This document shows positions 2,819 through 55,670 of a stretch of 55,670 bases of DNA, piece by piece. Origin of the DNA: a virus (taxonomy: Duplodnaviria > Caudoviricetes). The notes below the pieces were generated by a model. It did not search any database. It saw nothing but the letters and a program-made list of their open reading frames with translations, and was not told where the DNA came from. A program made the translations under genes and the position numbers. Location: positions 1-55,670 of the IMG/VR virus record IMGVR_UViG_3300001782_000010; one strand, 5' to 3'. The first letter of the stretch is position 1, and every line of letters starts with the position of its first letter.

Positions 2819-2850
2819 AATAATTATTAAGCAGGTACTTCAGATATTAA

Positions 2851-6327: not shown

Positions 6328-6366
6328 ACATACTTTTATACACCATTATATTTATTATATTCAGAG

Positions 6367-7113: not shown

Positions 7114-7123
7114 AGGGAGAATC

Positions 7124-7696: not shown

Positions 7697-7698
7697 AT

Positions 7699-11339: not shown

Positions 11340-11340
11340 A

Positions 11341-13617: not shown

Positions 13618-13618
13618 A

Positions 13619-14814: not shown

Positions 14815-15805
14815 CAAATATTCATATACCGCTGCTGGGATATTTCCTGCTAAATTATTAATACATCAAAAATTAAATGATTATACTAGAAAGTTTGGAA
14901 AAATATTTCCTATCCATATTCAATTAAATCCAACCAATAGATGTAATTTTAACTGTTTCTTCTGTTCTTGTGCAGGAAGAAAAAGAAATATAGAATTATC
15001 ATATAATGAAATTTATGATATTATGACCAAGTCAAAACAAGTTGGAGCAGAATCTGTAACTATCACAGGTGGAGGAGAACCTTTGATGCACAGAAAAATT
15101 CAAGAGATTATTCTTTCAATTGACCTTTTAGGAATTCAAATTGGTTTAGTTACAAATGGGACTTTATTAAAAAATCTTTCAACAGAAACTTTAGATAAAA
15201 TAGTCTGGTGTAGAATATCTTCTGGAGATAATGTGGAATATAGTAAATATGGAATGGGAAATGAAAAGTATAGAGATATGTTGGAAGAAATAGTTAATAG
15301 ATCTAATAAAACTGATTGGGCATTTAGTCATGTTCTATCTAGAGATCCAAATTATTATACTTTAGAACATGTTGTTAAATTTGCTAATAAACATAATTTT
15401 ACTCATGTAAGAATAGTGTCTGATCTTTTAGATCTAAAATATGTACCTAACATGAAAATTATAAAAGAACATTTAAGAAAAAGAAATATTGATGATAGTA
15501 AAGTCTTTTATCAAGGAAGAAAAGATTTTACTAGAGGAAAAAATCCTTGTTATATAAGTATTCTAAAACCAATAGTAGGAGCAGATGGTTGGATATATCC
15601 TTGTTGTGGTACACAATATGCTCTTAAAAATCCTTCAAAAGATTATGAATTTAGTATGAGGATGTGTAAAGCTACTGAAATTGATAAATTATATGAAGAA
15701 CAGAAATTTTTTGATGGTTCAGTTTGTGCAAGATGTTATTATCAGAACTATAACTGGGCTTTAGGTGTAATGTTATCTAAAATAGATCATGAGAAATTTG
15801 TATGA
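14804..15805 (+). CDS. Radical SAM protein with SPASM/Twitch-like C-terminus
   Basis: CNFNCFFC (CxxxCxxC), TGGGEP, VTNG, DGWIYPCC, CARC. Confidence 0.9.
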   Translation: MISNKYSYTAAGIFPAKLLIHQKLNDYTRKFGKIFPIHIQLNPTNRCNFNCFFCSCAGRKRNIELSYNEIYDIMTKSKQVGAESVTITGGGEPLMHRKIQEIILSIDLLGIQIGLVTNGTLLKNLSTETLDKIVWCRISSGDNVEYSKYGMGNEKYRDMLEEIVNRSNKTDWAFSHVLSRDPNYYTLEHVVKFANKHNFTHVRIVSDLLDLKYVPNMKIIKEHLRKRNIDDSKVFYQGRKDFTRGKNPCYISILKPIVGADGWIYPCCGTQYALKNPSKDYEFSMRMCKATEIDKLYEEQKFFDGSVCARCYYQNYNWALGVMLSKIDHEKFV

Positions 15806-16668
15806 AAGTAAATGTTGTAACTGTTAGTTCTGGATGGATCTTAGAAAAAATAGCTGATAGATTAATAGAGAACAATAATAAATTAAACACAAAAATGGAA
15901 ATGAGAAAATGTTATCAGCCAAATAATAAAGCAGATATTAATTATTATATTGATATTTACAACTGTTTCTGGAATAAATCTAAAATTAAAGATGTAGGAT
16001 ATTTTACTCATTTAGACAAAGATTCTGACAAAAGTTTTGAAGATCATTGGAAGTTATTAGATTATATAGTTCATAAAAATAGTTATTATTTAGATAGAAC
16101 AGCTAAATGGGGATATCCTAGAGAAAAGATGAAAGTAATAGTACCTCCAATAGATACTGAACAGTTTCATTTAAAGAAAATAACACTTGGGATAATTCAA
16201 AGAGGATATTATATTGGAAAAGGTCATCAGTTCATGCTTGATCTTCCTAAATATATTAATCTTAAAAACTTTAGATTTTTATTTATTGGACAAGGTTGGG
16301 ATCAAGTCTGTTCAGAATATAATAAAAGAAAAATTGCTTTTATGTATACTAGAAACGAGGATTATAATTTGTACAGGAAATATTATGAAATTATAGATTA
16401 TTTATTAGTTCCTTCTTTATGGGAAGGTGGACCAATGTGTATTCTAGAAGCTTTATCATGTGGTATTCCAATAATATCTAGTAAAGTAGGATTTGTACAT
16501 GATTTTAAGATTGATCATGTATTTGAACCAAACAATTATAAACAATTGATTAAGATTTTAAAAAATATAGAAAAAGAGAAACTGGAAAGAAGAGAACAAC
16601 TTAAAAATATCAATTGGAACAATTATATATTGGAACTATATAATATATTTAAAGAGGTTTTAAATTGA
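15802..16668 (+). CDS. GT4 family glycosyltransferase
   Basis: VPSLWEGGPMCILEALSCGIPIISSKVG (EX7E motif). Confidence 0.88.
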   Translation: MKVNVVTVSSGWILEKIADRLIENNNKLNTKMEMRKCYQPNNKADINYYIDIYNCFWNKSKIKDVGYFTHLDKDSDKSFEDHWKLLDYIVHKNSYYLDRTAKWGYPREKMKVIVPPIDTEQFHLKKITLGIIQRGYYIGKGHQFMLDLPKYINLKNFRFLFIGQGWDQVCSEYNKRKIAFMYTRNEDYNLYRKYYEIIDYLLVPSLWEGGPMCILEALSCGIPIISSKVGFVHDFKIDHVFEPNNYKQLIKILKNIEKEKLERREQLKNINWNNYILELYNIFKEVLN

Positions 16669-17099
16669 AAATAAATCTCGGATCAGGAAAAGATTATAGA
16701 AATGGGTTTGTTAATATAGAGAAAAATACTTTACTTAAAGCAGATATTCATTTAGATCTAGAAAAAGATAGATTACCTTTTAAAGATAGTTCGGTTGATT
16801 TTATTTTAATTAAACATACTCTGGAACATATTACTAATATTGTACATTTATTGAATGAATGTCATAGAATATTAAAGAAAGATGGAAATATACATATTGA
16901 AGTACCAAATGTAGCACACCCACAAGGAATTATAAGTGCATTTGGAGATATTTTTCATGTAAGATGTTTTAGTCCTTTTACTTTTACTATGCTTGGAGGA
17001 AGTTCAGACGATTACAGATTTAACAATCTTAAACCTTGGAATTTAATCAAATTAAGTTCTAATAGAGATATTATAGCTATTTTATCTCCTAGGAAATGA
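16665..17099 (+). CDS. SAM-dependent methyltransferase (type 11-like)
   Basis: INLGSG, LPFKDSSVD, HTLEH, ECHRILKKDG. Confidence 0.85.
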   Translation: MKINLGSGKDYRNGFVNIEKNTLLKADIHLDLEKDRLPFKDSSVDFILIKHTLEHITNIVHLLNECHRILKKDGNIHIEVPNVAHPQGIISAFGDIFHVRCFSPFTFTMLGGSSDDYRFNNLKPWNLIKLSSNRDIIAILSPRK

Positions 17100-17103
17100 T
17101 GAT

Positions 17104-17550
17104 ATGATTAAATTAAATTTAGGATGTGGAGCTAGATATCTTCAAGGATTTATAAATATTGATATTGACAGATCTTACAAAGCAGATCTATATCTTGATT
17201 TTGAGAGAGATGTTTTACCATATCAAGATAATTCTATAGATTATATTATAGCTATTCATACTTTAGAACATATTAATAATATATGGGATCTTTTAAATGA
17301 ATGTCATAGAGTTCTTAAACCAAACTGTATATTAGAAGTTGAAGTACCAAATATAGCTAATATTCCACAAGGATTATTAGATTCTGTAGAAAGTATGTCA
17401 CATATAAGATTTTTTGTACCTTCATCTTTTAAAACTATGACTACTGCAGGAACAAAAGCAGGAATAAAATATAATAAATTAAAAAGATGGAAGATAATAG
17501 AAATAAAACATAATAGAGCTATACATGTTAGGATGGTGCCTATAAAATGA
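17104..17550 (+). CDS. SAM-dependent methyltransferase, tandem paralog of 16665..17099
   Basis: LNLGCG, HTLEH, ECHRVLKP, EVPN shared with the upstream gene. Confidence 0.85.
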   Translation: MIKLNLGCGARYLQGFINIDIDRSYKADLYLDFERDVLPYQDNSIDYIIAIHTLEHINNIWDLLNECHRVLKPNCILEVEVPNIANIPQGLLDSVESMSHIRFFVPSSFKTMTTAGTKAGIKYNKLKRWKIIEIKHNRAIHVRMVPIK

Positions 17551-18185
17551 GGATATTAATAGTTACTCCAGCTAGAAGCTTTCAAGATGTTCATATTAAA
17601 GTTATGGAAGGAATAAGATCTTTAAATCTAGGAGAACATATAGTAGATTGGATATTACTTACTGAACAAAAATATAAAGGAACTGATCAAGGAAGTAGAG
17701 AAGGAAACTTAAGGTTAAAATTAGAATATGGCAGAAAAATATTTCTAGAAAATAACTATGACAAAATGATGATAGTAGAAAGTGATAATGTAATTCCAAG
17801 TCACACTTTACTGGATTTAATTAAAACTCCAGGAGATATTTCAGCTACTTTAATAATGGATAGACCAAGTATGGTACATGGACAGTATGAATGGAATTTA
17901 GTAAGGCAGACTGGTTCAGCATTCAATAAAAATGCTTTAGAATTAATTAGAAAGAAAGAACCATTTATAATAACTGGTGCAACAGGTTATCATTGTATAA
18001 TGATAGATAGAAAAGTTCTAGAAAAAACAGAATTTAAAGCTACTGATATTCATTCTTATATTAACTGGAGAGGATTAGGATTTCAGATATATTGTAATCC
18101 TCTTATTAATGTTGGACATCTAGATCATAAAAAGATCTATAAGAAAGAAATAGATGGAGAAAAAGTGATAATATTTGAAGCCTAG
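17547..18185 (+). CDS. GT-A fold (GT2-like) glycosyltransferase
   Basis: ILIVTP, IVESDNVIP (ExD), GYHCIMIDRKVLEK, C-terminal VGH. Confidence 0.7.
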   Translation: MRILIVTPARSFQDVHIKVMEGIRSLNLGEHIVDWILLTEQKYKGTDQGSREGNLRLKLEYGRKIFLENNYDKMMIVESDNVIPSHTLLDLIKTPGDISATLIMDRPSMVHGQYEWNLVRQTGSAFNKNALELIRKKEPFIITGATGYHCIMIDRKVLEKTEFKATDIHSYINWRGLGFQIYCNPLINVGHLDHKKIYKKEIDGEKVIIFEA

Positions 18186-18579
18186 AAAAGTATTCATGTT
18201 TGATATAGGAGACTGCTTAGATATTGGAGGAGAAAGAAAAGGAGACAAAGGATTTCTTATTCCAACTAGAGAAGTATTTACTAGTCTGAGAGATAAAGGA
18301 TACTGGTGTGGTTTTGCTTCTGGAGTATATTTCTGGGTTGGACATCAGATTGCCAATAGAAATAGATTAACAATAGATTTTGCTTTCAAGAAAGAAGATA
18401 TAATATATTTTGTAGGAAGTGTAGAAATAATGTATGGACCAGGAACAATTTTTTATATGATAGGAGAAGATGAATCTGATAAAATGTTTGCTGATATAGC
18501 CAATCAAGCATGTCCTAGTAAAGTTATATATTATTCTCCTAGAGAATTTTATAAAAGATTTAAACAAGGAGAATTTTAA
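18175..18579 (+). CDS. HAD-like hydrolase (divergent)
   Basis: FMFDIGDCL (motif I-like), FASG (II), MIGEDESD (IV). Confidence 0.5.
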   Translation: MKPRKVFMFDIGDCLDIGGERKGDKGFLIPTREVFTSLRDKGYWCGFASGVYFWVGHQIANRNRLTIDFAFKKEDIIYFVGSVEIMYGPGTIFYMIGEDESDKMFADIANQACPSKVIYYSPREFYKRFKQGEF

Positions 18580-18580
18580 A

Positions 18581-19159
18581 TTGGATTTTAAAAAATTATG
18601 GGACCAAAGAAAGATTGGTACATATCAAGATATTGAACTTCCAGATGGAACTGTTTTGGAAGGATGGAGACATTCAGAAAAAACATGGGACCAAATTAAA
18701 TGGATCCCTTTTAAAAACAAAATAATTCTAGATATTGGTCCTTTTCATGCATATTTTTTAATAAAGGCTGTTCAAGCTGGTGCTAAAGAATGTTATGGAA
18801 TAGATTTAAATGTTGGTGCGTTAGGGGAAGGAGAAATAAAAACATTATATGTAGCAAAAGAAATTGTTAAAAAGTGGAAATTTAATAATATATATTTAAT
18901 AATAGCAGACTGGATGTTTTCTCCTATTAAAAATAAAGTAGATATTATTTTATGTTTTAATACAGCACATTATTTTCATAATATTAATAAAGGAATAGAA
19001 GACATGTTTAAAATAAGTAAAGAATGGATAATATTTCAAGTGATGCATCATATTGTACCTATTATATATAGATATTGTAATAAATATAATTTTAAGGTAG
19101 AAAAAGAAATAATTGGTACATGGAATCAGAGACCAATATTATTTTGTAGAAAGGTATGA
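18581..19159 (+). CDS. SAM-dependent methyltransferase (CmoB/DUF1698-like)
   Basis: YQDIELPDG, ILDIGPFHAYF, YGID, DIILCFNTAHY. Confidence 0.75.
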   Translation: MDFKKLWDQRKIGTYQDIELPDGTVLEGWRHSEKTWDQIKWIPFKNKIILDIGPFHAYFLIKAVQAGAKECYGIDLNVGALGEGEIKTLYVAKEIVKKWKFNNIYLIIADWMFSPIKNKVDIILCFNTAHYFHNINKGIEDMFKISKEWIIFQVMHHIVPIIYRYCNKYNFKVEKEIIGTWNQRPILFCRKV

Positions 19160-19162
19160 AAT

Positions 19163-19912
19163 ATGATAATTACTGGAATTGTTAAATTTTATAATGAAAG
19201 TAATAATGGTAATTTAGAAAGATGTCTTAAACAGATGTCAATATATTGTAATCATATTATATGTTGTAATGATTCAAGTACTGATAATAGTCTAGAAATA
19301 GCATATAAATATACTAATGATATTATTAATCGTCCTAATGATTTTAAATCTGAACTTCAGCACAAACAAGATTTGTTAGATTATTTGTATAAATTTTATC
19401 CTAAAACTGATATTATTATACATTTAGACCCTGATGAATGTTTAGATAATATTTCTAATATAGGAGCTTTGTGTGATGAAGTTCTAATAAAAAATTATGG
19501 AGGAATAAGAGCACACCTTCTCAATTTATGGTTATCTGAAGATTATTATAGAGTAGATAACGCATTCAATTATTTATGGAAAACATTTCTATGGAGAAAT
19601 ACTGGAGAATTAAGGTATCCTTCTGAAAAGAAATTACATCAACCTATGCACCCTCCAAATATTAAAAATATAGCTACTGTTAATCCAAGAAGTTTACAGA
19701 TAATTCATTATGGATTTTCTACTCCTGAATTAATAGCTAGAAAATATAAAACATACAAATCATTAGGACAGACTGGATGGGAATTAAGTAGATTAATACC
19801 TACTCATAAAACAGAACTATTTCCTTTATATCCTGGTTCAGGAGGAAGACCTATAAATAGAATAAATAAGAAAGAATGGAAGGAAGTATTAAAAAAATGT
19901 CAATTACAATAG
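19163..19912 (+). CDS. GT2 family glycosyltransferase
   Basis: NDSSTDNS, LDPDE, IIHYG. Confidence 0.8.
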   Translation: MIITGIVKFYNESNNGNLERCLKQMSIYCNHIICCNDSSTDNSLEIAYKYTNDIINRPNDFKSELQHKQDLLDYLYKFYPKTDIIIHLDPDECLDNISNIGALCDEVLIKNYGGIRAHLLNLWLSEDYYRVDNAFNYLWKTFLWRNTGELRYPSEKKLHQPMHPPNIKNIATVNPRSLQIIHYGFSTPELIARKYKTYKSLGQTGWELSRLIPTHKTELFPLYPGSGGRPINRINKKEWKEVLKKCQLQ

Positions 19913-20655
19913 TTATACCAACATATAATTCAGTAGATTATTTAAAAACATGTTTAAAGTCTATTTTCAAACAAACTCTTAAACCAGATGAAATTTTAAT
20001 AATAGATGATTGTTCTACAGATAATACTTGGGAATATCTGGAAGACTTAGCTAAAAATCATTCAGAAATAAAAATACATACTAATAAAGAAAATATGGGA
20101 ATAGGGTACACTAGAGGAAAAGGAATTGATCTAGCAAGATCAGAATATATTGGATTTATATCTGCTGATGATGGTTTAGAAAGAAAATTCTGTGAAGTAA
20201 TGTTAAAATATAATATTAAATATTCTGATTCATTATTGTATTCAGATTATTTTAGATGTAACGAAGAATTAATACCTACTGGAATATATAGAGCACCATC
20301 TTTTAGAGATCAGGAAGAATTGGAGAAATATTGTATTGTTGAAGCTAGAAAACATAACATGTTTATTTGTTATAATTTATTTGGACCTTCTAAAATATGG
20401 AAGAAATGTAATTTTAATCCTAATAAAAGAATGGTAGAAGATTTAGAACATTTACTTAGAGCATTAGTTGTACATCATATTAAATTTACTCATGTACCAT
20501 TTCCTTTATTTAAATATAGAATACATAAAAAATCAACTACATCTCAGAAATATTGGGATTGTATAAAAGAAAATAGAAAGACCTTTAAAGAAATAAATAC
20601 TCTAGTAAACAAAAGAATACTATGGGATCAAATCTTTAAAGGTAAAAAATTATGA
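19876..20655 (+). CDS. GT2 family glycosyltransferase (start probably 19897)
   Basis: IVIPTYN, IDDCSTDNT, SADD, EDLE, YRIH. Confidence 0.9.
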   Translation: MEGSIKKMSITIVIPTYNSVDYLKTCLKSIFKQTLKPDEILIIDDCSTDNTWEYLEDLAKNHSEIKIHTNKENMGIGYTRGKGIDLARSEYIGFISADDGLERKFCEVMLKYNIKYSDSLLYSDYFRCNEELIPTGIYRAPSFRDQEELEKYCIVEARKHNMFICYNLFGPSKIWKKCNFNPNKRMVEDLEHLLRALVVHHIKFTHVPFPLFKYRIHKKSTTSQKYWDCIKENRKTFKEINTLVNKRILWDQIFKGKKL

Positions 20656-21515
20656 AGTCTAGATTAGAATATTTAAAATATAAAGATAAAATAACAATTG
20701 GTGCTCCATTTTATAATTCTGTATGGTGCTGGAAAATATTTAGTAAAAGTATTTTAGATCAAGACTACAATAAAAAATATATTAATATTGTATGGGTTGA
20801 CAATGGATCAACAGATAATACTAAAGATTTATTATTAAAATTTAAAAAGAAATATGAGAAAGATTACAATTCTATTAAAGTCTTAGATTGTCCAAGAGTT
20901 AAAGAGAAATCTAGAGGAATGAGAAAATATATTCGAAATATAGTCAATGGTACAAATATGATAGCTGATAATAGAGAGAAAGATAGTGATCTTATATTAA
21001 TGGGAAGTGACTGTATTCCTCCTCAAAATGGTCTTAAAAAACTTCTAGATATGAAATATCTTGGAGCTGATATTGCAGGAGGAATAACTGTAATATTTGC
21101 AGGTGGTAGATTAGATAAATATGGTAGAAAAACTGTTATACCAGTCTTTTCTATATTTAACGCTTTAAGTCCATCATCTGCTTTTAAAGGAGTATTATTC
21201 CATAAAACTGAAAAGGATCTTCTTACTTTACCAGTATGGTTAAAAGATAAAGTAATTAGAGTAATGGCTTTAGGAACAGGTTTCTGTTTAATAAGAGATA
21301 GAGTATTAAAGAAACAAAGATGGAAAGTAAATTATAGATTTGGAGAGGATTTATATTTCTGCTGGACAGCACACCTTAATGGTTTCAAAATATATGCTGA
21401 TACTTCTTTATGGTATGATCATTTACATTATGATTATCAAGTAAAAAAGAAGAAACTAGGATATCAAATAATATATAAAGGAGAAACTGATAAGAGGGAA
21501 CGTTGGATTGTATAA
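20652..21515 (+). CDS. GT2 family glycosyltransferase
   Basis: APFYN, VDNGSTDNT, GSD, GTGFCLI, GEDLYFC. Confidence 0.85.
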   Translation: MKSRLEYLKYKDKITIGAPFYNSVWCWKIFSKSILDQDYNKKYINIVWVDNGSTDNTKDLLLKFKKKYEKDYNSIKVLDCPRVKEKSRGMRKYIRNIVNGTNMIADNREKDSDLILMGSDCIPPQNGLKKLLDMKYLGADIAGGITVIFAGGRLDKYGRKTVIPVFSIFNALSPSSAFKGVLFHKTEKDLLTLPVWLKDKVIRVMALGTGFCLIRDRVLKKQRWKVNYRFGEDLYFCWTAHLNGFKIYADTSLWYDHLHYDYQVKKKKLGYQIIYKGETDKRERWIV

Positions 21516-22392
21516 TTCAGATTATCAAATAACTATTGGAACACCTTTCTATAATTCTTCATATTATGTAAATATGTATTTAAAACATGTTTATGATTTA
21601 GATTATCCTAAGAAATTAATAAATTTAATATTTGTTAATAATGAAAGTACAGATGACACAGAAGATAAACTAGTTAATTTTTGTAAAAAATATAAAAACA
21701 AATATAGATCTGCTAAAGTACTTTTTACTAAACATATCGAAGAAAGAGGAAAATTTAAAGGGCATTCAAATATTGTAGAATCTGTTAAAGCTTTCATAAA
21801 AGAAAATAAAACTGACTTATTATTTATAGGGTCCGATTGTTTTCCTACTAAAGATTCTATTAATAAACTTATTGAATTATTTAGAAAAGGTGCTGATATA
21901 GCTGCAGGAATTACTTTAGTTGGAGGAGCACAGACTCAAATTAAAGGTAGATTAATAAAAGGAATACCTGTTTTAAGTGCTTATTCTTTTGATAAGATTA
22001 CTGGAAAATTTCATTCTCTATCTAGAATTAAAAAAGATAAACCATATGTTTCTATGTTAGGAGTTGGATATTTAAATAAAATAGTAGAAGTAGATGGTAT
22101 AGGAACAGGTCTGTCTTTAATTAAAAAAGAAGTTCTAGATAATGTGTCTTTTGGAATAAGTAAGAGATATGGTGAAGACCTATATTTCTGTATGAAAGCT
22201 AGAATGTTAGGATATAAGATAATGATAGATACAAGTTTATTGTATAACCACTGGCATTATAGTTATTCAACTAATACTAACCAAGATGGAATGTATTTCA
22301 TAGTTAAGGGAATTAGAAATAAAGAAACAGGTGAAATAAATCCTATAATAGATAAGAATGCTTATAAATCAAAAAGGACATCAATTTATTAG
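21508..22392 (+). CDS. GT2 family glycosyltransferase, tandem paralog of 20652..21515
   Basis: TPFYN, NNESTDDT, GADIAAGIT, GTGLSLI, GEDLYFC. Confidence 0.85.
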   Translation: MYNSDYQITIGTPFYNSSYYVNMYLKHVYDLDYPKKLINLIFVNNESTDDTEDKLVNFCKKYKNKYRSAKVLFTKHIEERGKFKGHSNIVESVKAFIKENKTDLLFIGSDCFPTKDSINKLIELFRKGADIAAGITLVGGAQTQIKGRLIKGIPVLSAYSFDKITGKFHSLSRIKKDKPYVSMLGVGYLNKIVEVDGIGTGLSLIKKEVLDNVSFGISKRYGEDLYFCMKARMLGYKIMIDTSLLYNHWHYSYSTNTNQDGMYFIVKGIRNKETGEINPIIDKNAYKSKRTSIY

Positions 22393-48722: not shown

Positions 48723-50582
48723 ATGGGTGATTTTAATCCTGTTGATTTTTATTCTGTTGATTTTTATGATGGATTAGATTATAAAGTAATACCTGTTAGA
48801 ATTGGAATATATGAACTTGGCGAATTCAAAAATATCTTAGTTAATATTAGAATAAATGAAATTGTAGCTGAATTTAAAAATCTATTAACAAGGATTAGAA
48901 TACAAGAACTCCCATTATACTTTAAAGATATTCTATCAAGAGTTAAAATAACATCAGTATTTCCTTCAACTGATGTTCCAGAATGGGATATTAAATTATA
49001 TAGAATAATAAATGGATCAGAAATACAATTATCATTCAATAATCAAGAAGTAATAGAAATAGAAACAGAACAAATAGCTAATAGAGAAATAGGAAATTTC
49101 AGAATTAGAATGACTAATGAACCTATTCTTCAAGATATTGAGTCAGCAGATGCTATTGAAATATTTATGAGACATACAGGAGAAGAATGGTCCAAAATAT
49201 TTACAGGACAGGTTATTAAAGCTCCAGAAGAATTAACAGACGAAGGAGATAGATTTATTAATGTTAATGGAAATGATTTTGGACTACTTCTTAAAAAATA
49301 TTCTTTTACAAGAACATATACAGACGCAACTTTTGCTGATATTATAAAAGATATAGTAGATCCAATTACTAAAAAGACAGGTACTCCATCTCCAACAGAA
49401 AAGAAAATAACAGTTAATAATGTTGAAGGATCAGATATTATAAGTTGGGAATTTGAAGATTACACTTATTGGGATGCTATTAAAGAGTTATGTGCTAAAT
49501 ATAATTATATTTTTTATGTTGATGAGAATAAAGACTTAAATGTTTTTAAAAGAGGAACTAAGTATGGAGATTATCTTAATGAACCTATGCTAGAAAAATA
49601 CAAATATTATACAACAGTGGAATATATTATAAATTATCAGGAAGTAATTGGTGCAAGAACAGATGTATTTAATCCAGAGAATAAAGATGACTGGTCAGAA
49701 ACTACAAATAATTATACAGGAAGTGCTTTAAATTATAATAATCAGCCTAAAACTGTTTATTTTGATGTTGGTACTCCAGCACAAGCAGGAATATATTATA
49801 TTAAAGCATATACTACAGATACAATCAACACAGCTTTAATAAGATATTCTTTTTCTCCATCAGCAGATTGTTCTAACACATATAAAACATTTAAAGTTAT
49901 GAGAAGACAGAACGATGAATTTAGATATAAAATACGTTTAGAAACAGATGCTTCAAACTATTATGAAACTACAGAATGGTACCATGATTCTGTATGGAAT
50001 GAGAAAGTTGTAACTACAAATACTGCTACTGGATGGAATATTACTGGAAGTCCTTCATGGAATAATATAAACAGTATTTCATTTAATTTGAAATATCCAG
50101 AAGCATTGTTTGGTCAAGGAATATTTGGATTAAGTATTTTCAGTTCATTTGATAATATATTAAATGAACATTTTGATAAAATGTATTTTGAAGGAGATAG
50201 AGTAAGAGCTATAGCTTATGACATAACTTCTCAAAATAAATATGGTTATTCAGAAGGAGAAAAAATAATAGATGAATCTTTAACTTTAAATTCTCAGGCA
50301 CAAGCAGTAGCTGAATATATGGTTAATTCTTATAAAAATCCACTACCAGTTGTTGAAAATGCAGAGACAGACTTTAATAAATTGGATGTAAAACCAGGAA
50401 GACTTATACAAATTAGTATTCCTGAAATTTCAGATTCATTTATTATTTCAAGTATTAGACATTCATTATTAGAAGATAAGAATATTGATCTGTATATGTT
50501 GTCATATTATCTTCCTTCAATAGAAACTGAATTGAAAGATTTAAAAACTAGAATTGCTTCTTTAGAACATAGAGTTGATTAA
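48723..50582 (+). CDS. Baseplate hub / Tal-like protein
   Basis: KIFTGQV, YWDAIKELC..YNYIFYVDE, SQNKYG and VKPGRLIQI hub motifs; C-terminal coiled coil. Confidence 0.75.
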   Translation: MGDFNPVDFYSVDFYDGLDYKVIPVRIGIYELGEFKNILVNIRINEIVAEFKNLLTRIRIQELPLYFKDILSRVKITSVFPSTDVPEWDIKLYRIINGSEIQLSFNNQEVIEIETEQIANREIGNFRIRMTNEPILQDIESADAIEIFMRHTGEEWSKIFTGQVIKAPEELTDEGDRFINVNGNDFGLLLKKYSFTRTYTDATFADIIKDIVDPITKKTGTPSPTEKKITVNNVEGSDIISWEFEDYTYWDAIKELCAKYNYIFYVDENKDLNVFKRGTKYGDYLNEPMLEKYKYYTTVEYIINYQEVIGARTDVFNPENKDDWSETTNNYTGSALNYNNQPKTVYFDVGTPAQAGIYYIKAYTTDTINTALIRYSFSPSADCSNTYKTFKVMRRQNDEFRYKIRLETDASNYYETTEWYHDSVWNEKVVTTNTATGWNITGSPSWNNINSISFNLKYPEALFGQGIFGLSIFSSFDNILNEHFDKMYFEGDRVRAIAYDITSQNKYGYSEGEKIIDESLTLNSQAQAVAEYMVNSYKNPLPVVENAETDFNKLDVKPGRLIQISIPEISDSFIISSIRHSLLEDKNIDLYMLSYYLPSIETELKDLKTRIASLEHRVD

Positions 50583-50584
50583 AT

Positions 50585-51514
50585 ATGGTAGGTATTAAAC
50601 ATAGTGAAACAGTTACAGATAATGTAGATACTGTTACTGCAGAGAAATGGAACGCTGATCATATTATAACAGGAAATATTGTACCACAAAATCCAGGATA
50701 TTCCATAGGAAGTTCAACAAATCCATTTGTAGGTATTTATTTTGGAACATCTGATAGTCCTAAATTTAGAACATATAGATATTCTTCTTTAATCTTTGAA
50801 ATTCTTAAAAATATAACTAGTGGCATTGTAAGACTTGAAGTTAGAGAAGCAGGTCCAGACGAGCTTGTATTCAGATCACATATAGGAACAGATATTTTTA
50901 AAATAACTGAAACTGGAGATATTATCCTCACTGGAAATGTAGATGGAGTAGATATTGCAAATCATGTTCATTCTGGAGGAAGTCTTGGATTAACAATTGA
51001 TCATGGTACCACAACAGGAAAAAGTGATGATGATCATCCAGAATATTTAAGATTAAATAAATCTGGACAGACTCTTCAACAAAATTTAAGTGTTGCAGCA
51101 GGAATAACAATTGATGGTAAAGATATATCATCAATAGGTGAAGGATGGCATGCATCATCCACAAGAATAAAAATATCACCTCAAGATTTTAGAAGGGGTG
51201 GAGCAGCAGATTATTACTGTTCAGGATCTACAGGTTCACTACAAGGGTCAGGATCATTATGGGCAACATCTTATATACCAACAGGTTTCAAGGCAACTGC
51301 TGTTAGGATATATGGTTCTGCAGGAGTAGATATTGATATATATGAATGTAGAATAGATGATAATACTCTTGATAGCAGAGGAAGCGGTACAACATTTGCA
51401 GAAATTGATATAACTGATGTAACTTCATCATCTGTAAATTATCTAGCAATTAGAGCTACTAAGACTGCAGCATTTAGTGTATACGGTGGATATGTAACTA
51501 TAGTTAAAGTTTAA
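50585..51514 (+). CDS. Tail fibre-like protein
   Basis: VDGVDIA/IDGKDIS repeats, DHG...DDDHPEYL motif, G/S-rich C-terminal beta domain. Confidence 0.65.
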   Translation: MVGIKHSETVTDNVDTVTAEKWNADHIITGNIVPQNPGYSIGSSTNPFVGIYFGTSDSPKFRTYRYSSLIFEILKNITSGIVRLEVREAGPDELVFRSHIGTDIFKITETGDIILTGNVDGVDIANHVHSGGSLGLTIDHGTTTGKSDDDHPEYLRLNKSGQTLQQNLSVAAGITIDGKDISSIGEGWHASSTRIKISPQDFRRGGAADYYCSGSTGSLQGSGSLWATSYIPTGFKATAVRIYGSAGVDIDIYECRIDDNTLDSRGSGTTFAEIDITDVTSSSVNYLAIRATKTAAFSVYGGYVTIVKV

Positions 51515-52805
51515 GAAATTTACTTTTTCTTTTTCTTTTAGATCCAACTCTAATATACCATGTACTAGGAGGTAAACTAGATTCCTGTACTCCTAACATT
51601 ATACTATCTACCCAATCATCTTTCTCATGTGTGTCAATAGTATACACTGATAATTGCATAAATGCTGTTTTATATTTTTCAGGTATTTTGATGTCTTTAT
51701 GTTCTATTAAAGATTGAAGACCAAATTGCATTCTAGGTTTATTTCCTTTAAATGTTATTCCTTTTATTTTACATAATCTTAGGTCCTGTAAATCTCTTAT
51801 TAACCAAGGAATAGCAGCATCAGCATTTACTATCATCACATTATAATCTCTTATTAAATGTCCTATTCTATTAATTATAAAATCTCTAGGTTTTTCTGTC
51901 CATTCTTCAGCATATACTAGATACCAGGTACTTCCTTCTTTCTGAAATATTGTGATAATAGTAGGATTTTTTGATCCAAAGTCTACTCCCATATAACTAG
52001 GAGAATTAGTATCGAAAGAACATGTTTTAACTTTAACTTCATCTCTAAGTCTTACAGGATTAAATAATGCTCCTTTAGGATTAAAAGAAGGTTCACCTTT
52101 CCATTTAGCATCAAACTTATCTTTAGATAATGTAGCTTCTGCTTCTTTAATTTCTGATAAAGAGATCCAATTACAATCAAATGAAGACCATGATTTTCTT
52201 TCCCAGTGTTCATATTTTTTTAGATCATTCCACATTTCTATAAATCTAGAAAAATAATATTCAGTTTCTGGAGTAGATGTAAATATGATAATTCCTGGTT
52301 CTCCAACTATTCTAGAATAAGAATCATCCATAATATTGTCTGGTATTAGAACAGCTTCATCTCCAAAATAAACATTAGGATGTTCTCCTAGAATCTGTTT
52401 TTCACTAGAAGTAAAAGATTTTATCCATGATCCATCTTTAAAGTTTAATTCAGTAACTTTTGGATCTCCTTTAATTAATTCTTCAATATATGGATGTTCT
52501 ATGAATTCTTTAACAAAAGATTGTAATTTCTTGGCTTGTGTCCAACTACCACTTACTAGAAGAACTCTTACTCTTCTTCTTTTCTTTTTAGCATATACTG
52601 TACAGAACCATAAGGCTATAATAGCTAACAATAAAGTCTTTCCAGTTTTATTAGCAGAACATATTAGAATTCTTTTTGTAAGTTTTTTTACTAAGTCTAA
52701 TAATTCTTGCTGTTTAATATTTGGAGAGAAAGGAGTAATATCTTTCATAAATTCTCCAATATCATTAATCCATACTTCTCTTTTTAACATAAAATATAAT
52801 GACAT
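51504..52805 (-). CDS. terL: Terminase large subunit
   Basis: Walker A ANKTGKT, Walker B YFGDEA, FTSTP coupling motif, nuclease GVDFG and KDDWVDS. Confidence 0.92.
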   Translation of the reverse strand: MSLYFMLKREVWINDIGEFMKDITPFSPNIKQQELLDLVKKLTKRILICSANKTGKTLLLAIIALWFCTVYAKKKRRRVRVLLVSGSWTQAKKLQSFVKEFIEHPYIEELIKGDPKVTELNFKDGSWIKSFTSSEKQILGEHPNVYFGDEAVLIPDNIMDDSYSRIVGEPGIIIFTSTPETEYYFSRFIEMWNDLKKYEHWERKSWSSFDCNWISLSEIKEAEATLSKDKFDAKWKGEPSFNPKGALFNPVRLRDEVKVKTCSFDTNSPSYMGVDFGSKNPTIITIFQKEGSTWYLVYAEEWTEKPRDFIINRIGHLIRDYNVMIVNADAAIPWLIRDLQDLRLCKIKGITFKGNKPRMQFGLQSLIEHKDIKIPEKYKTAFMQLSVYTIDTHEKDDWVDSIMLGVQESSLPPSTWYIRVGSKRKRKSKFLKL

Positions 52806-53342
52806 TTAATAACCCTTATTTTTAAGTTTTTCAGCTATTTTATTAATATATTCTACTGGTATATCTTCACAAGCTTCTATAAAATCTTTGAATATATCTT
52901 CTTTATCTATTTCAGGTTCAGGATAATATTCTTTTTTAATCTTTTCATATTCTCCCATACATTTAACAATATCAGTTACTAAACCTCTTAACTCTCTGAT
53001 CATAGATGGTTTAAAGAAATTCTGTTTATTTTCAAGAACAGTTCCAAGAGTAGTTTCTAGAACTTCTAAATGTGTTCTAATTCTTTCAAGTATACTTACA
53101 TCTTCATTTAATCTTTTCTGAAAATATTCTTTAGTGTACTTATCAGCTTCTTTCATAAATTTCTGATATGGATATACATGTTTTCTAAAATGATCTCCAA
53201 GAGCAGTATCTGATATTGGATCTTTATCTTTTAACCATTCTTCTACTCTTTCCACAGACCATCCTTTTTCTAATACTAATTCATGTATTTCTTTCTTATA
53301 TTTAGATGTACATGTTTTACATCTGGTACTGAAATATGACAT
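52806..53342 (-). CDS. Putative terminase small subunit
   Basis: Abuts terL; N-terminal CKTC + HTH-like + HxxxH motif, helical C-terminus; GAGGGAGG SD. Confidence 0.65.
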   Translation of the reverse strand: MSYFSTRCKTCTSKYKKEIHELVLEKGWSVERVEEWLKDKDPISDTALGDHFRKHVYPYQKFMKEADKYTKEYFQKRLNEDVSILERIRTHLEVLETTLGTVLENKQNFFKPSMIRELRGLVTDIVKCMGEYEKIKKEYYPEPEIDKEDIFKDFIEACEDIPVEYINKIAEKLKNKGY

Positions 53343-53545
53343 GGTCCTCCCTCACATAGTTACTTAAACTTTTATATATATAAACATTAGCTTCATTAGG
53401 CATTAACTGTTAAATGAGTCTTTAATTACAAATATACATAACTATTTCAAACTCCTTCCAAACCCAATACTACATATATACTAATGTCGTCTATGGATAA
53501 AGATTTAAAAGTAAAATTTGATGGATGTTATGAATGTGATGAATA
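53343..53545. promoter_or_regulatory. Divergent promoter region between the terminase operon and right-end genes
   Basis: Palindromic TTTATATATATAAA at 53371-53384; GATAAAGATTTAAAA (BRE/TATA-like) near 53497-53511. Confidence 0.5.
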
Positions 53546-54316
53546 ATGCAAACAACCAAAAAAAGTAAGAAGGATTTCGTTAAAGAGTTATGTGAGGATA
53601 AAGGATACTCTTATAGAGATTTAGTAAGAGAAGGATTATTCAATAATGTTACTAAGGCTTTTAGGTATTGTAAGACATACTCTATAAAGACGATTTACTC
53701 AAATGAAAAGAATGAAGATAAAAAACAATTAAATACTTTATCTTTAAACGATTTAAAAAACTTAGATGGAGTAATTGATTTAAGTTGTGTATCTATAGTA
53801 AGACAAAAAGGAAAACATAAGAGAGATATAGGAGATACTTTAATCGGATATATTGATATAAGAAGTAAAAGAGTCTTTATAAATTACATTAAAGACTTAA
53901 AACAAAATAAAGTAACCGAAAACATGGTTATTACATTCTTAGAATACTTAAAGATAAAATTCAATTTAAAAATTCAAACTATAGGTTGCGATAGTGAATT
54001 TCCTAATTTACCTTACAAAATTGGTAAAGTTGCAAATTGGAATTGCTCAAAAAGTTATATAGAAAAATGTTTTGGAATTAAAAACAAAATTCTACAATAC
54101 TTAAATATAGTAAAAGAAATTATGGGATTAACAAATAAAGAATTACTCACAACACATAAAGAAATAGTAAGAAGGATATACTTAGAAATTTTAAAAAGAC
54201 ATAAAGAAACTTTTACTTTAGTTTTAGAGGTAAATAACACAATTCCTTCAAAAGAGAAAAAAGAGATTATGGTTACTCATAGAGTAACAAATAAAAAAGG
54301 AGGTTTGATAAAATGA
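53546..54316 (+). CDS. Protein with a possible DDE integrase/transposase (rve-like) core
   Basis: VIDLS...GYIDIRSKRVF...TIGCDSEF...SYIEKCFG resembles D, D-x-x-S-R, D-N-G-x-E-F and I-E-R-x-F-G of rve/IS481 cores. Confidence 0.45.
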   Translation: MQTTKKSKKDFVKELCEDKGYSYRDLVREGLFNNVTKAFRYCKTYSIKTIYSNEKNEDKKQLNTLSLNDLKNLDGVIDLSCVSIVRQKGKHKRDIGDTLIGYIDIRSKRVFINYIKDLKQNKVTENMVITFLEYLKIKFNLKIQTIGCDSEFPNLPYKIGKVANWNCSKSYIEKCFGIKNKILQYLNIVKEIMGLTNKELLTTHKEIVRRIYLEILKRHKETFTLVLEVNNTIPSKEKKEIMVTHRVTNKKGGLIK

Positions 54317-54513
54317 CAAAAATAGAAGAATTCTCTAATATTGAATTAATAGAGAATTACAACAAAATTAAAATGATAAAAGGTATGATTGAAATAGAAA
54401 TTAAAAGGAGAGTAAGAGAAGGAGAAATGAAAAATATCTTTAAGACTTCTTACCCTTTACTCTTACCATTTGATAGAAAAAAGAATTTTCATGACTTAAG
54501 AATAATGATTTAA
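54313..54513 (+). CDS. Hypothetical small protein
   Basis: GGAGGT SD, ATGA overlap. Confidence 0.55.
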   Translation: MTKIEEFSNIELIENYNKIKMIKGMIEIEIKRRVREGEMKNIFKTSYPLLLPFDRKKNFHDLRIMI

Positions 54514-54527
54514 AAGAGGTAAGAGAA

Positions 54528-54773
54528 TTGGAGAGAAATACAATTAAACAAAACTACGAAATAGCTAATATTCTCTTAGAAAATATGTGTATGATAAAAT
54601 GTAAAAAGACAATAACTAAAGAATGTCTTAAAAAGAAATGTGAAATGAAGACATTAATTGATAATTTGGATTACCATTACTCAATGGATTGGTATAAAAT
54701 GATTTCACATGACGTTAAAAGAGTTATGAAATTATTCTTAAAGACGATTAAGATAACAATAACAATTAAGTGA
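54528..54773 (+). CDS. Hypothetical Cys-containing small protein
   Basis: GAGGT SD; four Cys. Confidence 0.5.
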   Translation: MERNTIKQNYEIANILLENMCMIKCKKTITKECLKKKCEMKTLIDNLDYHYSMDWYKMISHDVKRVMKLFLKTIKITITIK

Positions 54774-55030
54774 AACACTCTTAATAAGATTGTTTCATGG
54801 TTAAAGGAATGTTGAAATAAGGAATAAGAAAAGGAATTAAAGACGTATTATTCAACCCTTAAACAACACAACAAAAACAAATAGGAAGGAGAGATAATAT
54901 TACATCTATTGTTAATATAGGTTGAATACCTAAGTTTTTTATGGTGTAATTGTTTAGTTATAACTATTCACACAACACAAACCTTATAAAGAAACCTTAA
55001 CACTTATGTTAATTACGGAAAAATAGAGGA

Positions 55031-55372
55031 ATGAATTTGTCAAAAGAAACCAAAGACACACCAACCGAAGACAAAGACAAAGACAAAGAAACTTTAATGA
55101 TGGAGATAGATTTAACTCCTCCCGAAGAAACCGTTGTAAGTGAATATCCCGCAACAAAAGGGCATTACTTTCGCCCTTTTTTGACTAAAGACGGAAAGCT
55201 AAAGAATGAAGGAAATTTAAAATCTATTGAAAAAATAGAAAGACGGGGTTATTTCCTTCTACCAAAAGTAAAAAAGATTATGGGGAGAGATAACTTCACA
55301 AAAGCTATGGTTGGTTTCTTAGAATCTCTTAACCAACACTACGAAAAAGAGATTAAAAAAGCTAAATCCTAA
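55031..55372 (+). CDS. Hypothetical protein
   Basis: 113-aa ORF followed by a terminator-like hairpin. Confidence 0.55.
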   Translation: MNLSKETKDTPTEDKDKDKETLMMEIDLTPPEETVVSEYPATKGHYFRPFLTKDGKLKNEGNLKSIEKIERRGYFLLPKVKKIMGRDNFTKAMVGFLESLNQHYEKEIKKAKS

Positions 55373-55376
55373 AGGT

Positions 55377-55421
55377 AAAGAGTCTTTAAAAATTTAGACT
55401 CTTTTCACTCCCTCTTTTTTT
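55377..55421 (+). terminator. Hairpin plus pyrimidine/T tract
   Basis: AAAGAGTCT-10nt-AGACTCTTT followed by TCACTCCCTCTTTTTTT. Confidence 0.6.
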
Positions 55422-55477
55422 CTCAAAATAAATTTGAGGAAAAGAAAATAATGATACCAAAGAAAACTCCCTATTTC

Positions 55478-55670
55478 TCTAAGCATAATATCTTAAATCT
55501 TCCTATAAAGCATAAGCACAAAGATAAAGACAAAGACAATTTTAACGATTTAACTTCTAAAAAATCTAAAAATCTAATTGGGAGAATTCTAAGCATAATA
55601 TCGTATGCAAAAAATCAAAAGAAAAAGCATAAAAAATCTAAGCATAATCTAATGCAATCTTTGAAGCATA
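55478..55670 (+). repeat. Clustered AAGCATA direct repeats
   Basis: TCTAAGCATAATATC at 55478 and 55588, TCTAAGCATAAT at 55637, AAGCATA at 55508, 55625 and 55664. Confidence 0.7.

What the first reader, a model, noticed from the sequence alone, without database searches (positions are those of the whole stretch)
53410..55670. Sharp switch to a segment devoid of CAG/CTG, GATC, CTAG, GTAC and GAAC/GTTC
Seen by manual scan: after the CTG at 53407 I find no CAG or CTG trinucleotide and no GATC, CTAG, GTAC, GAAC or GTTC in about 2260 nt. These words are very common in the preceding 53 kb, while CG, rare upstream, appears more often here. Established: first-transferred or early DNA of some phages (e.g. 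T5) is purged of sites targeted by host defences. Inference: this is a leading, first-injected region under strong motif avoidance (restriction sites or a PAM-like triplet), while the rest of the genome is protected by modification, repair or delayed entry. Alternatives are a provirus-host junction or a recently acquired module.
Basis: partly seen in the sequence, partly recalled or inferred. Interest (0 to 1): 0.8.

Follow-up and report, generated by a model that had tools for sequence, protein, structure and literature searches.

The report
Motif-purged early module beside terminase genes
The last 2.3 kb of this uncultured marine-sediment virus contig, a block of early-type genes that starts next to the DNA-packaging genes, has been stripped of a whole set of very short DNA words, most likely because this DNA meets host nucleases before the rest of the genome is protected.

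Summary
Observation confirmed and sharpened. From 53410 to the contig end (2261 nt) there is no CAG/CTG (29.5 expected by Markov model, 56.5 at the rate of the other 53 kb; no other 2261-nt window has fewer than 32). The absent words follow a simpler rule. C..G at spacing 2 (CWG 0) and spacing 3 (CNNG 7 of 38, CATG spared) and G..C at spacing 3 (GNNC 4 of 38) are purged. GNC and spacings of 4 or more are normal. Synonymous-codon shuffles show the purge acts on DNA, not protein.

The switch lies in the divergent intergenic region upstream of the putative small terminase gene. A second assembly bridges it. A relative (TerL 49% identical, two metagenomes) has the same layout, a shared 24-nt element at the head of a non-homologous early module, and a purge of other words (GATC, GACC/GGTC) starting at the same place.

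Best reading (about 0.5): an early, probably first-entering module under restriction-type avoidance, as in T5 and T7-like phages. This is inferred; termini, host and the missing half of the genome are unknown. The degenerate motif classes match no Type II specificity I know. The scan has noted similar purged early blocks in other phage genomes.

The parts
53410..55670 (.). Motif-purged segment: no CWG; CNNG (except CATG, CCCG/CGGG) and GNNC nearly absent; CG more frequent than anywhere else in the contig. It runs to the contig end, so its true length is unknown.
53343..53545 (.). Divergent intergenic region in which the switch occurs (last GNNC 53343/4, last CWG 53407).
53473..53496 (+). 24-nt element (TATA-like run followed by TAATGTCRTCTAWGG) shared with the relative L002/L001 at the head of its early module. 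Candidate early promoter or packaging/end site; function not tested.
   Evidence: single match in window, 6 of 100 shuffles give one; L002 5659-5673 -, L001 1027-1041 -
53546..54316 (+). First gene of the purged module, 256 aa: N-terminal helix-turn-helix plus RNase H-like (DDE integrase/transposase-like) core. D78 and D149 are invariant in 8 of 8 family members.
54313..54513 (+). ORF, 66 aa, no family match
54528..54773 (+). ORF, 81 aa, no family match
55031..55372 (+). ORF, 113 aa, acidic N-terminus, no family match and no homolog other than itself. The second assembly's main contig ends inside it at 55263.
55451..55669 (+). ORF open at the contig end (73+ aa), no family match; lies on the low-depth path.
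52806..53342 (-). Putative small terminase subunit, named by position only (directly upstream of and co-oriented with TerL). About 43% identical over 140 aa to the equivalent gene of L002. Not purged.
51504..52805 (-). Large terminase subunit; not purged
   Evidence: phrog_2, 3.7e-28; Terminase_6N/6C

Best explanation
The segment is the start of the virus's early gene module. It reads away from the packaging genes, and its DNA is under strong selection against a set of very short words. The most likely reason is that this stretch is exposed naked to host DNA-cutting defences (restriction-type nucleases) before the virus has switched them off. The rest of the genome would be protected because it enters later or is shielded once early products are made. 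This is the logic established for the first-step-transfer DNA of T5-like phages and the leading end of T7-like phages. SHOWN: the purge is real, sharp, strand-symmetric, present in coding and non-coding DNA, and independent of protein sequence and codon usage. It starts in the intergenic region beside the terminase genes. A related virus purges different words from the same position onwards. INFERRED: the agents are host nucleases; this end enters first (a cos/pac site upstream of the small terminase gene would put the module at the last-packaged, first-ejected end, with its genes reading inward); and early products protect the remaining DNA.
For: (1) Size and sharpness: with figures given in the observation check. 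(2) Selection on DNA: 2000 synonymous-codon shuffles kept the five ORFs' proteins and the segment's own codon counts. They give CWG 10.5 +/- 2.0 (observed 0; 0 of 2000 shuffles as low), GNNC 15.3 (observed 4; 0/2000), CNNG 15.7 (observed 6; 1/2000) and GWWC 7.6 (observed 0; 0/2000). CATG, GNC, CG and GC are not depleted. (3) Both orientations of every asymmetric word are absent, so double-stranded DNA is the target, not mRNA. (4) Not an assembly artefact: an independent assembly of public reads gives one 18868-nt contig covering 49000-55263 of the laid stretch with no difference. The 24-nt element just inside the segment is shared with a relative at the equivalent position. (5) Recurrence: in L002 (TerL 49% identical; the same virus as L001 from another metagenome, 99.8% over 5620 nt) the module divergent from TerS has no GACC/GGTC in 1-5887 (12.7 expected by Markov model; 13 in the 4386-nt late part). 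It has no GATC in 1-5691 (11.8 expected for the module; 20 in the late part). The only two GATC of that side lie at 5692 and 5717, just beyond the shared element. Synonymous shuffles give GATC 5.1 expected vs 0 (7/2000) and GACC/GGTC 4.6 vs 0 (9/2000). (6) The purged words are not avoided in the other 53 kb (observed/Markov 1.0-1.6), and no DNA methyltransferase family (PF01555, PF00145, PF02086) is found there. The late DNA therefore needs another kind of protection. (7) Published precedent: RM motifs matter only in the first-injected region of Murciavirus, T5 and T7, and such leading regions are highly variable (PMC12455610, abstract and discussion read). T5-like phages resist RM when sites lie outside the terminal repeats (PMC10644984, abstract read). 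(8) The early modules of the window and L002 share no detectable similarity, whereas TerS and TerL do. This matches the variability described for leading regions.
Against: No physical end was mapped. Only contigs, not reads, could be laid, and no terminal repeat is present in the contig. The contig is about 51% of a genome and the purged stretch runs off its end, so it may cover far more than a leading end. None of the five ORFs matches a known anti-restriction or T5/T7 early gene. The first gene looks like a DDE integrase or transposase, which is not a typical takeover gene. The segment also differs from the rest in codon usage (TAC 15 of 24 Tyr codons vs 11%; C-ending codons 11% vs 4%) and in CG content. 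These differences could equally reflect a foreign origin. The absent words form degenerate classes (CWG, GNNC, most CNNG) that I cannot match to any known Type II enzyme set. Host and host defences are unknown, and the packaging mode is unknown (one search gave no solved relative). Published work notes that leading-end avoidance is irrelevant for headful packagers (PMC12455610 discussion).
Confidence: 0.5

Rival explanations
1. Mosaic origin. The early module was imported by recombination from a virus or plasmid lineage that is purged genome-wide because it lives in hosts with many short-site nucleases. The switch point is simply the recombination junction. In that case the purge says nothing about entry order in this virus.
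For: Homology with the relative stops exactly at the boundary: tblastx finds TerS, TerL and a weak match to the next late gene but nothing in the early modules. Codon usage, Lys content and CG frequency differ between the segment and the rest. The seven remote homologs of the first gene (28-34% identity) show it belongs to a small dispersed family.
Against: Two viruses with unrelated early modules both show purged early DNA next to unpurged late DNA, with the edge at the same shared 24-nt element. That would require two independent recent imports of purged modules. The purge is complete (0 CWG against 29.5 to 56.5 expected; CNNG 7 and GNNC 4, each against 38 expected by composition), which argues for ongoing selection in the present host rather than a decaying relic. 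Both viruses also show higher CG in early than in late DNA (observed/expected 0.58 vs 0.16, and 0.46 vs 0.19). That looks systematic rather than accidental.
Confidence: 0.2
2. Self-avoidance. The purged words are targets of an enzyme of the virus itself. This could be a motif-directed DNA modification made late in infection, or a frequent-cutting nuclease used against host DNA. The early module is kept free of them so that incoming DNA can be transcribed or stay intact, while late DNA is modified or made only after the enzyme is controlled.
For: The purged words are slightly over-represented, not avoided, in the other 53 kb (CWG 1.40, GTAC 1.61, CTAG 1.30, GATC 1.25 against Markov expectation). 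The virus carries a PAPS-reductase-family protein, a radical SAM enzyme, several SAM methyltransferases and many glycosyltransferases, whose substrates are unknown. Known double-stranded phosphorothioate motifs (GpsAAC/GpsTTC, GpsATC, GpsGCC; passage in PMC9521924) all belong to the GNNC class.
Against: No recognisable DNA methyltransferase is found. The island looks like sugar metabolism by Pfam (epimerase, GT1, GT2). The relative purges ordinary restriction-type words (GATC, GACC/GGTC), which fits host enzymes better. No nuclease candidate was identified, and half the genome is unseen.
Confidence: 0.12
3. RNA-level or translation-level constraint on the early transcripts, for example avoidance of sites for a host or viral ribonuclease, or codon-pair effects.
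For: The purged stretch begins near a TATA-like element about 50-70 nt upstream of the first ORF, so it roughly coincides with a transcription unit whose genes all lie on one strand.
Against: Every asymmetric word is missing in both orientations on the coding strand (GAAC and GTTC, CAAG and CTTG, GGAC and GTCC, GACC and GGTC, CCAC and GTGG). The classes are reverse-complement symmetric. That is expected for double-stranded DNA targets and not for RNA. Intergenic parts are purged too.
Confidence: 0.05
4. Assembly chimera joining two unrelated molecules at about 53410.
For: There is an abrupt change of several composition measures at one point. The last about 400 nt lie on low-depth contigs (2.8 and about 1, against 11.3).
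Against: A second assembler's contig runs through 53410 without a difference (the two runs look like one data set filed twice, so this is one independent assembly, not two samples). The element at 53473-53496, inside the new segment, is homologous to the element next to the homologous TerS gene in L001/L002, which come from two other metagenomes.
Confidence: 0.03

Closest known systems
First-step-transfer (pre-early) DNA of phage T5 and other Tequintavirus phages
   Same: A defined sub-genomic stretch of early genes is free of host restriction sites while the rest of the genome carries them. Restriction acts only on sites in that stretch (PMC10644984 abstract; PMC12455610 discussion, which cites the T5 EcoRI work).
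   Different: In T5 the stretch lies in a roughly 10-kb terminal repeat with an injection stop signal and known genes (A1, A2). Here no terminus, repeat, stop signal or homologous gene was found. The purge concerns 3-4-nt degenerate classes rather than individual 6-bp sites. The virus is an uncultured marine-sediment virus with no detectable close relatives among deposited phages.
Leading (first-injected) region of Autographiviridae (T7, Murciavirus)
   Same: Sensitivity to restriction is decided by motifs in the first-entering, highly variable early region, and motifs elsewhere are tolerated (PMC12455610, abstract and discussion). Here too the early genes read inward from the presumed end, and the early modules of relatives are unrelated.
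   Different: That case concerns one Type I motif. No Ocr-like or other anti-restriction gene is recognisable here. The genome is roughly 100 kb by the completeness estimate, with terminase genes divergent from the early module. It is not a T7-like layout.
Leading regions of conjugative plasmids
   Same: The DNA that enters first is depleted of RM targets and carries anti-defence genes (stated in the PMC12455610 discussion, citing other work I did not read).
   Different: This is a tailed-virus contig (terminase, structural genes). No relaxase or oriT was looked for or seen in the segment.
Modification-dependent restriction enzymes of the MspJI type
   Same: They are the only nucleases I found in print with a CNNG-like specificity (MspJI: 5(h)mC-N-N-G/A, PMC4231741 abstract). 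Such enzymes typically have 2-4 bp specificity (PMC7461809 abstract), like the classes purged here.
   Different: They need modified cytosine, and no evidence exists that this virus's DNA is modified. GNNC and CWG are not explained by mCNNR, and CATG is spared here. This is a lead only.

Membership tests
T5-type first-step-transfer region | Host restriction-type words absent from the segment but present in the rest of the genome | tested here: met
T5-type first-step-transfer region | Segment lies at a physical genome end or within a long terminal repeat | tested here: inconclusive
   No terminal repeat in the contig. The contig is about 51% complete. Only contigs could be laid, so no read-start pile-ups are available.
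T5-type first-step-transfer region | Two-step DNA transfer with an injection stop signal | not testable with these tools
   Needs infection experiments or at least a complete genome.
T5-type first-step-transfer region | Homologs of known pre-early genes | tested here: not met
   0 PHROG families and 0 NCBIfam families for the five ORFs. Pfam gave one sub-threshold match for ORF256 only (PF01658, E 0.0044, 17.6 bits against a cut-off of 27)..
T7-type leading region | Recognisable anti-restriction gene (Ocr-like) among the first genes | tested here: not met
   No family match. No homolog of ORF113 other than itself.
T7-type leading region | Early genes co-oriented, reading inward from the entering end | tested here: inconclusive
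   All five ORFs are on the + strand, reading away from the intergenic switch, but the end itself is not mapped.
DDE (retroviral-integrase-type, rve) recombinases, for ORF 53546-54316 | RNase H-like core fold (three strands, helix, strand, helix) | tested here: met
   AlphaFold model built on 8 sequences: mean pLDDT 72.3, strands 75-83, 94-104, 109-115, helix 125-139, strand 145-147. The best Foldseek PDB hits are the HIV-1 integrase core (E 1e-3, prob 0.98), IstA and TnsB, all weak, with none below E 0.001. Atlas leads to rve clusters score 0.90 or less.
DDE (retroviral-integrase-type, rve) recombinases, for ORF 53546-54316 | Conserved D, D, E catalytic triad | tested here: inconclusive
   D78 (first strand) and D149 (after the fourth strand) are invariant in 8 of 8 sequences. 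No invariant third acidic residue was found.
DDE (retroviral-integrase-type, rve) recombinases, for ORF 53546-54316 | Match to the Pfam rve models | tested here: not met
   No rve hit for any of 8 members at E<=0.1. Transposase-type HTH domains do match: HTH_23 in 6 of 8 and HTH_38 in 5 of 8 members, but none in the window's own protein.
Insertion sequence or transposon inserted in the virus | Terminal inverted repeats bracketing the transposase gene or the segment | tested here: not met
   Only short, imperfect inverted repeats (<=26 nt, 73-100% complementary) with no pair bracketing the gene or the segment. The purge extends 1.35 kb beyond the gene.

The most novel reading that the evidence does not exclude
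The purged words are not a list of ordinary restriction sites. They are three reverse-complement-symmetric classes that place a C and a G 2-3 nt apart: CWG, CNNG (sparing CATG) and GNNC. That pattern points to host (or viral) DNA-targeting enzymes with only 2-3 specified bases. Such breadth is known only for modification-dependent nucleases (MspJI: mCNNR) and for the GNNC family of phosphorothioation motifs. On this reading the virion DNA carries a cytosine or backbone modification that shields the bulk genome from classical restriction. The early, first-read module is then purged of every context in which modification-reading nucleases would cut, or in which the modification would be written. 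The module's word gaps would then be a direct read-out of an undescribed ultra-short-motif defence or modification system in an uncultured sediment host.
Probability: 0.15. Interest if true: 0.85.

Novelty: new variant of a known kind. Interest (0 to 1): 0.6.

Why it matters
Region-limited restriction avoidance is experimentally known only for a few cultured coliphage and Marinomonas phage groups. This contig gives an extreme, statistically unambiguous case in an uncultured marine-sediment virus, and a relative repeats it with a different word set.

If the leading-end reading holds, sequence alone would reveal three things. It would show which end of such a virus enters first. It would show where the early promoter or end element lies. 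It would show which words the unknown host's defences recognise.

The breadth of the purge (a trinucleotide and two 2-base-specified classes) is beyond what known Type II specificities explain. It therefore also points to a possibly undescribed kind of frequent-cutting or modification-reading defence.

Tried and rejected
Relatives of the segment:
- blastn of 53300-55670 against deposited phages gave no match.
- tblastn of TerL against phages gave no match.
- ORF256 and TerL, and later the TerL alignment, found nothing in viral contigs.
- The TerL alignment and an alignment of four ORF256-family proteins found nothing in genome contigs.
- P0007 and P0008 found nothing in viral contigs.
- An exact 35-mer from the segment was not found in viral or metagenome contigs.
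- The degenerate 23-nt element pattern was not found in viral contigs.
- The window's own record may be left out of these collections, as the tools state.
- ORF256 and ORF113 have no close homolog other than themselves among 5.8 billion proteins.

Function of the ORFs:
- PHROGs and NCBIfam gave nothing for the five ORFs, and Pfam only the sub-threshold PF01658 match for ORF256.
- The single-sequence structure model of ORF256 was unusable (pLDDT 41.9).
- The first early protein of L002 is not demonstrably related to the ORF256 family (BLASTP E 3.2; hhalign probability 0.4%).
- Pfam gave nothing meaningful for ten early ORFs of L002.

Other searches:
- Packaging type: the TerL profile has no solved relative by sequence, so cos versus headful could not be inferred.
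- Host: the Atlas look-up of the epimerase gave mixed, mostly bacterial neighbours and is uninformative. The Pfam eS30 model gave no match at E<=0.001 in the window. I therefore do not call the host archaeal.
- Rfam and tRNA scans of the segment or window found nothing. The sigma-70 and terminator pattern scan was not above shuffles.
- Gapped motifs: all 20 absent gapped patterns are derivatives of CNG, CNNG or GNNC.
- Literature: a whole-word search for 'CWG' with 'restriction-modification' and 'methyltransferase' listed one unrelated paper. 'CNNG' with 'restriction' led only to MspJI papers. So I found no printed enzyme with CWG or GNNC specificity in that library. These are two searches, not an exhaustive check. 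REBASE could not be consulted, and paper supplements were not seen.

Explanations rejected:
- Deamination-type mutational decay is not supported. The would-be products are not in excess (CAA/TTG 91 vs 79.1; CTA/TAG 64 vs 78.8).
- PAM avoidance is rejected as the sole cause because about ten independent words are purged.

Local depth is not informative because contigs carry one depth figure each.
Full report
WHAT THE RECORD IS. The window is the whole held record: one linear IMG/VR virus contig of 55670 nt, with CheckV completeness 51%. It has no terminal repeat, 28% G+C, and almost all genes on the + strand. Two runs with coded ids hold it (marine sediment and seawater metagenome labels). They contain identical contig sets and look like one data set filed twice. 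It has no detectable relatives among deposited phages or IMG/VR contigs.

OBSERVATION. After the CTG at 53407 there is no CAG, CTG, GATC, CTAG, GTAC, GAAC or GTTC in 2261 nt. CG rises from 3.05 to 9.73 per kb. For CAG/CTG the strand-symmetric Markov expectation inside the segment is 29.5, and the rate of the other 53 kb predicts 56.5. The longest CWG-free gap elsewhere is 322 nt. No other 2261-nt window has fewer than 32 CWG or 18 GWWC. Nine strand-symmetric tetranucleotides with expectation 3.3-18 are absent. Of 46 control windows, 38 lack none and 8 lack one. The distribution is bimodal: the next-lowest words sit at 0.28-0.55 of expectation.

A SIMPLER RULE. The absences reduce to spacing between C and G on one strand. 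CNG is 9 against 38 expected by composition, all CCG/CGG, so CWG is 0. CNNG is 7/38 (CATG four times, at its expected frequency of 4.7, and CCCG/CGGG three times). GNNC is 4/38. GNC (33/38) and all spacings of 4 or more are normal. CG and GC are about 0.55-0.58 of expectation. In the other 53 kb the same spacings are at or above expectation (1379, 1225 and 1235 against 1034), while CG is only 0.16 of expectation. Every absent gapped pattern is a derivative of these three classes. Both orientations of each asymmetric word are missing. The classes are reverse-complement symmetric, so the target is double-stranded DNA.

SELECTION ON DNA. I shuffled synonymous codons among the five ORFs of the segment, keeping the proteins and the segment's own codon counts (which already lack CAG and CTG). 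The shuffles still produce 10.5 +/- 2.0 CWG, 15.3 GNNC, 15.7 CNNG and 7.6 GWWC at codon junctions. The observed values are 0, 4, 6 and 0, reached by 0, 0, 1 and 0 of 2000 shuffles. CATG, GNC, CG and GC are not depleted. The would-be deamination products of CWG are not in excess, so a mutational origin is not supported.

ANATOMY OF THE EDGE. The large terminase gene (51504-52805, -; PHROG 2 at 3.7e-28, Pfam Terminase_6N/6C) is preceded by a 178-aa gene in the small-terminase position (52806-53342, -). From 53546 five ORFs read the other way. The last GNNC (53343/4) sits at the start codon of the 178-aa gene. The last CNNG is at 53340 and the last CWG at 53407. The last CG before the switch is at 52013 and the first after it at 53488. 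All measures therefore switch inside the 203-nt divergent intergenic region.

NOT A CHIMERA. Another assembler's contig of 18868 nt covers 49000-55263 of the laid stretch with no difference. It ends inside the 113-aa ORF at 55263. Beyond that point only contigs at depth 2.8 and about 1 match, so the last 400 nt of the window follow a minor variant path. That path is purged as well.

A RELATIVE REPEATS THE PATTERN. TerL has four relatives among 5.8 billion proteins (73, 57, 48 and 36% identity). A scan of metagenome contigs recovered three loci. L001 and L002 are the same virus from two metagenomes (99.8% over 5620 nt; TerL 49% identical to the window's). L003 is too short to be informative. 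In L002, TerS (5870-6415) and TerL (6416-7723) diverge from a run of eleven small ORFs on the other strand.

The early side of L002 has no GACC/GGTC in 1-5887 (Markov expectation 12.7; 13 in the 4386-nt late part). It has no GATC in 1-5691 (11.8 expected for the module; 20 in the late part), and no CCWGG (7 in the late part). The only two early-side GATC, at 5692 and 5717, lie in the intergenic region. Synonymous shuffles give 5.1 GATC and 4.6 GACC/GGTC expected against 0 (7 and 9 of 2000 shuffles as low). GTAC is 2 against 7.0 (21/2000). CCWGG is uninformative in that test, and CWG, CTAG and CATG are not depleted. As in the window, CG is less depleted in the early part than in the late part (0.46 vs 0.19).

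Aligning the two intergenic regions shows one shared block: window 53473-53496 against L002 5659-5682 on the minus strand. It is a TATA-like run followed by TAATGTCRTCTAWGG. It occurs once in the window, and once each in L001 and L002. In L002 the purge starts within about 10-35 nt of this block. In the window the block lies 64 nt inside the purged stretch. Otherwise homology stops at the boundary. tblastx finds TerS, TerL and a weak match in the next late gene, but nothing between the early modules.

GENES OF THE SEGMENT. The five ORFs match no PHROG or NCBIfam family, and Pfam gives only a sub-threshold PF01658 match for ORF256. The 256-aa protein has seven remote homologs (28-34% identity). 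Of the 8 family members, 6 hit the transposase-type HTH_23 model and 5 hit HTH_38, but the window's own protein hits neither. D78 and D149 are invariant.

An AlphaFold model built on the alignment (mean pLDDT 72.3) shows a three-helix N-terminal domain and an RNase H-like core. Foldseek's best PDB matches are the HIV-1 integrase core, IstA and TnsB, all weak (best E 1e-3). Protein-atlas neighbours are rve clusters at 0.90 or below. No Pfam rve match is found. I read it as a divergent HTH-DDE recombinase-like protein, which agrees with another first-stage note on the same gene. No inverted repeats bracket it, and the purge continues 1.35 kb beyond it, so the segment is not simply an insertion sequence.

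Codon usage in the segment differs from the rest. TAC is 15 of 24 Tyr codons against 11%. TTC is 10 of 21 against 16%. GAC is 10 of 29 against 12%. Lys is 17% against 9%.

THE REST OF THE GENOME. The purged words are not avoided in the 53 kb (observed/Markov 0.95-1.61). No DNA methyltransferase family (PF01555, PF00145, PF02086) is found there. The island at 10647-22392 holds a PAPS-reductase-family protein, generic SAM methyltransferases, an epimerase, a radical SAM protein and glycosyltransferases. This looks like sugar metabolism, and a role on DNA is not shown. Half of the genome is unseen.

INTERPRETATION. What is shown is DNA-level, module-limited, lineage-specific purging of short words, starting at a conserved element beside the packaging genes, in two related viruses with unrelated early modules.

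The best-supported mechanism is the one published for T5-like and T7-like phages. In those phages the DNA that is exposed first must lack the host's restriction targets, while the rest is tolerated because early products or delayed entry protect it (PMC12455610 abstract and discussion; PMC10644984 abstract). The layout fits. If the packaging site lies upstream of the small-terminase gene, as in many cos and pac phages (my knowledge, not tested here), the early module would form the opposite, last-packaged and first-ejected end. Its genes would then read inward. None of that is demonstrated: no end was mapped, and the host and packaging mode are unknown.

The main rival is mosaic import of a module from a lineage purged genome-wide. 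It is favoured by the homology break and the different codon usage. It is disfavoured by the recurrence in two viruses, the completeness of the purge, and the shared early/late CG contrast.

A third reading is that the words are targets of a viral modification or nuclease from which the early module must stay free. It is kept alive by the mild excess of these words in the late DNA and by the unexplained enzyme island.

WHAT IS UNUSUAL. The purged set is far broader than in the published cases: a trinucleotide class and two classes with only two specified bases, with CATG spared. Two searches of the paper library found no enzyme with CWG or GNNC specificity. CNNG-like specificity appears only for MspJI-type modification-dependent enzymes (PMC4231741 abstract), which as a group have 2-4 bp specificity (PMC7461809 abstract). 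The known double-stranded phosphorothioate motifs are GNNC words (passage in PMC9521924). These are leads for the boldest reading, not tests.

EARLIER NOTES OF THIS SCAN. Other first-stage notes and follow-up reports describe motif-purged early blocks in other phage genomes. One example is a 22-kb GATC-free early block whose relative purged another palindrome. I did not check them, and they are not independent evidence. They do suggest the phenomenon is widespread.

VERDICT. The finding is a new, extreme variant of a known kind. Interest is 0.6.

Noticed in passing
window 55245-55670: The second assembly's main contig (depth 11.3) ends at 55263, inside the 113-aa ORF. Only contigs at depth 2.8 (55245-55546) and about 1 cover the rest. 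The window's last ~400 nt therefore follow a minor strain path, and the majority path beyond 55263 is not in the window.
   Followed up: partly
window 54306-55345: Low-depth contigs (3.3-3.4) in both runs join 54306 to 55345 with 25 other letters between. This looks like a variant in which the small ORFs after the first gene are replaced. The replacing letters contain CAAG and CAG, words that the window's segment lacks. A second odd joint (54534 to 53885, depth 2.4) was also listed.
   Followed up: no
window 1-53409, especially 52014-53487: CG is at 0.16 of its composition expectation in the late 53 kb and entirely absent from the last 1.4 kb (terminase genes). TG/CA show no matching excess. 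The relative L002 shows the same early/late contrast (0.46 vs 0.19). Cause unknown.
   Followed up: partly
window 1-53409: Several of the words purged from the segment are mildly over-represented in the rest of the contig against Markov expectation (GTAC 1.61, CWG 1.40, CTAG 1.30, GATC 1.25).
   Followed up: no
window 6130-6327: Another first-stage note calls this a ribosomal protein eS30 homolog. The Pfam Ribosomal_S30 model (PF04758) gave no match at E<=0.001 anywhere in the window (one candidate scored), so the archaeal-host argument built on it is not supported at that level.
   Followed up: partly
window 10647-22392: By Pfam the gene island holds PAPS_reduct (4.3e-40), four generic SAM methyltransferases, an NAD-dependent epimerase (4.6e-51), a type I phosphodiesterase-like protein, a radical SAM protein, one GT1 and four GT2 glycosyltransferases. 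Substrate (glycan or DNA) unknown.
   Followed up: partly
window 53493-53546: A 17-codon ORF (ATG at 53493) starts inside the conserved element and ends at the start of the 256-aa gene. It is not conserved in L002.
   Followed up: no
L002 1-5869: GAAC/GTTC is over-represented in the relative's early ORFs (53 observed against 36.4 in synonymous shuffles; all 2000 shuffles are at or below the observed value). This is the opposite of the window's segment, where the word is absent.
   Followed up: no
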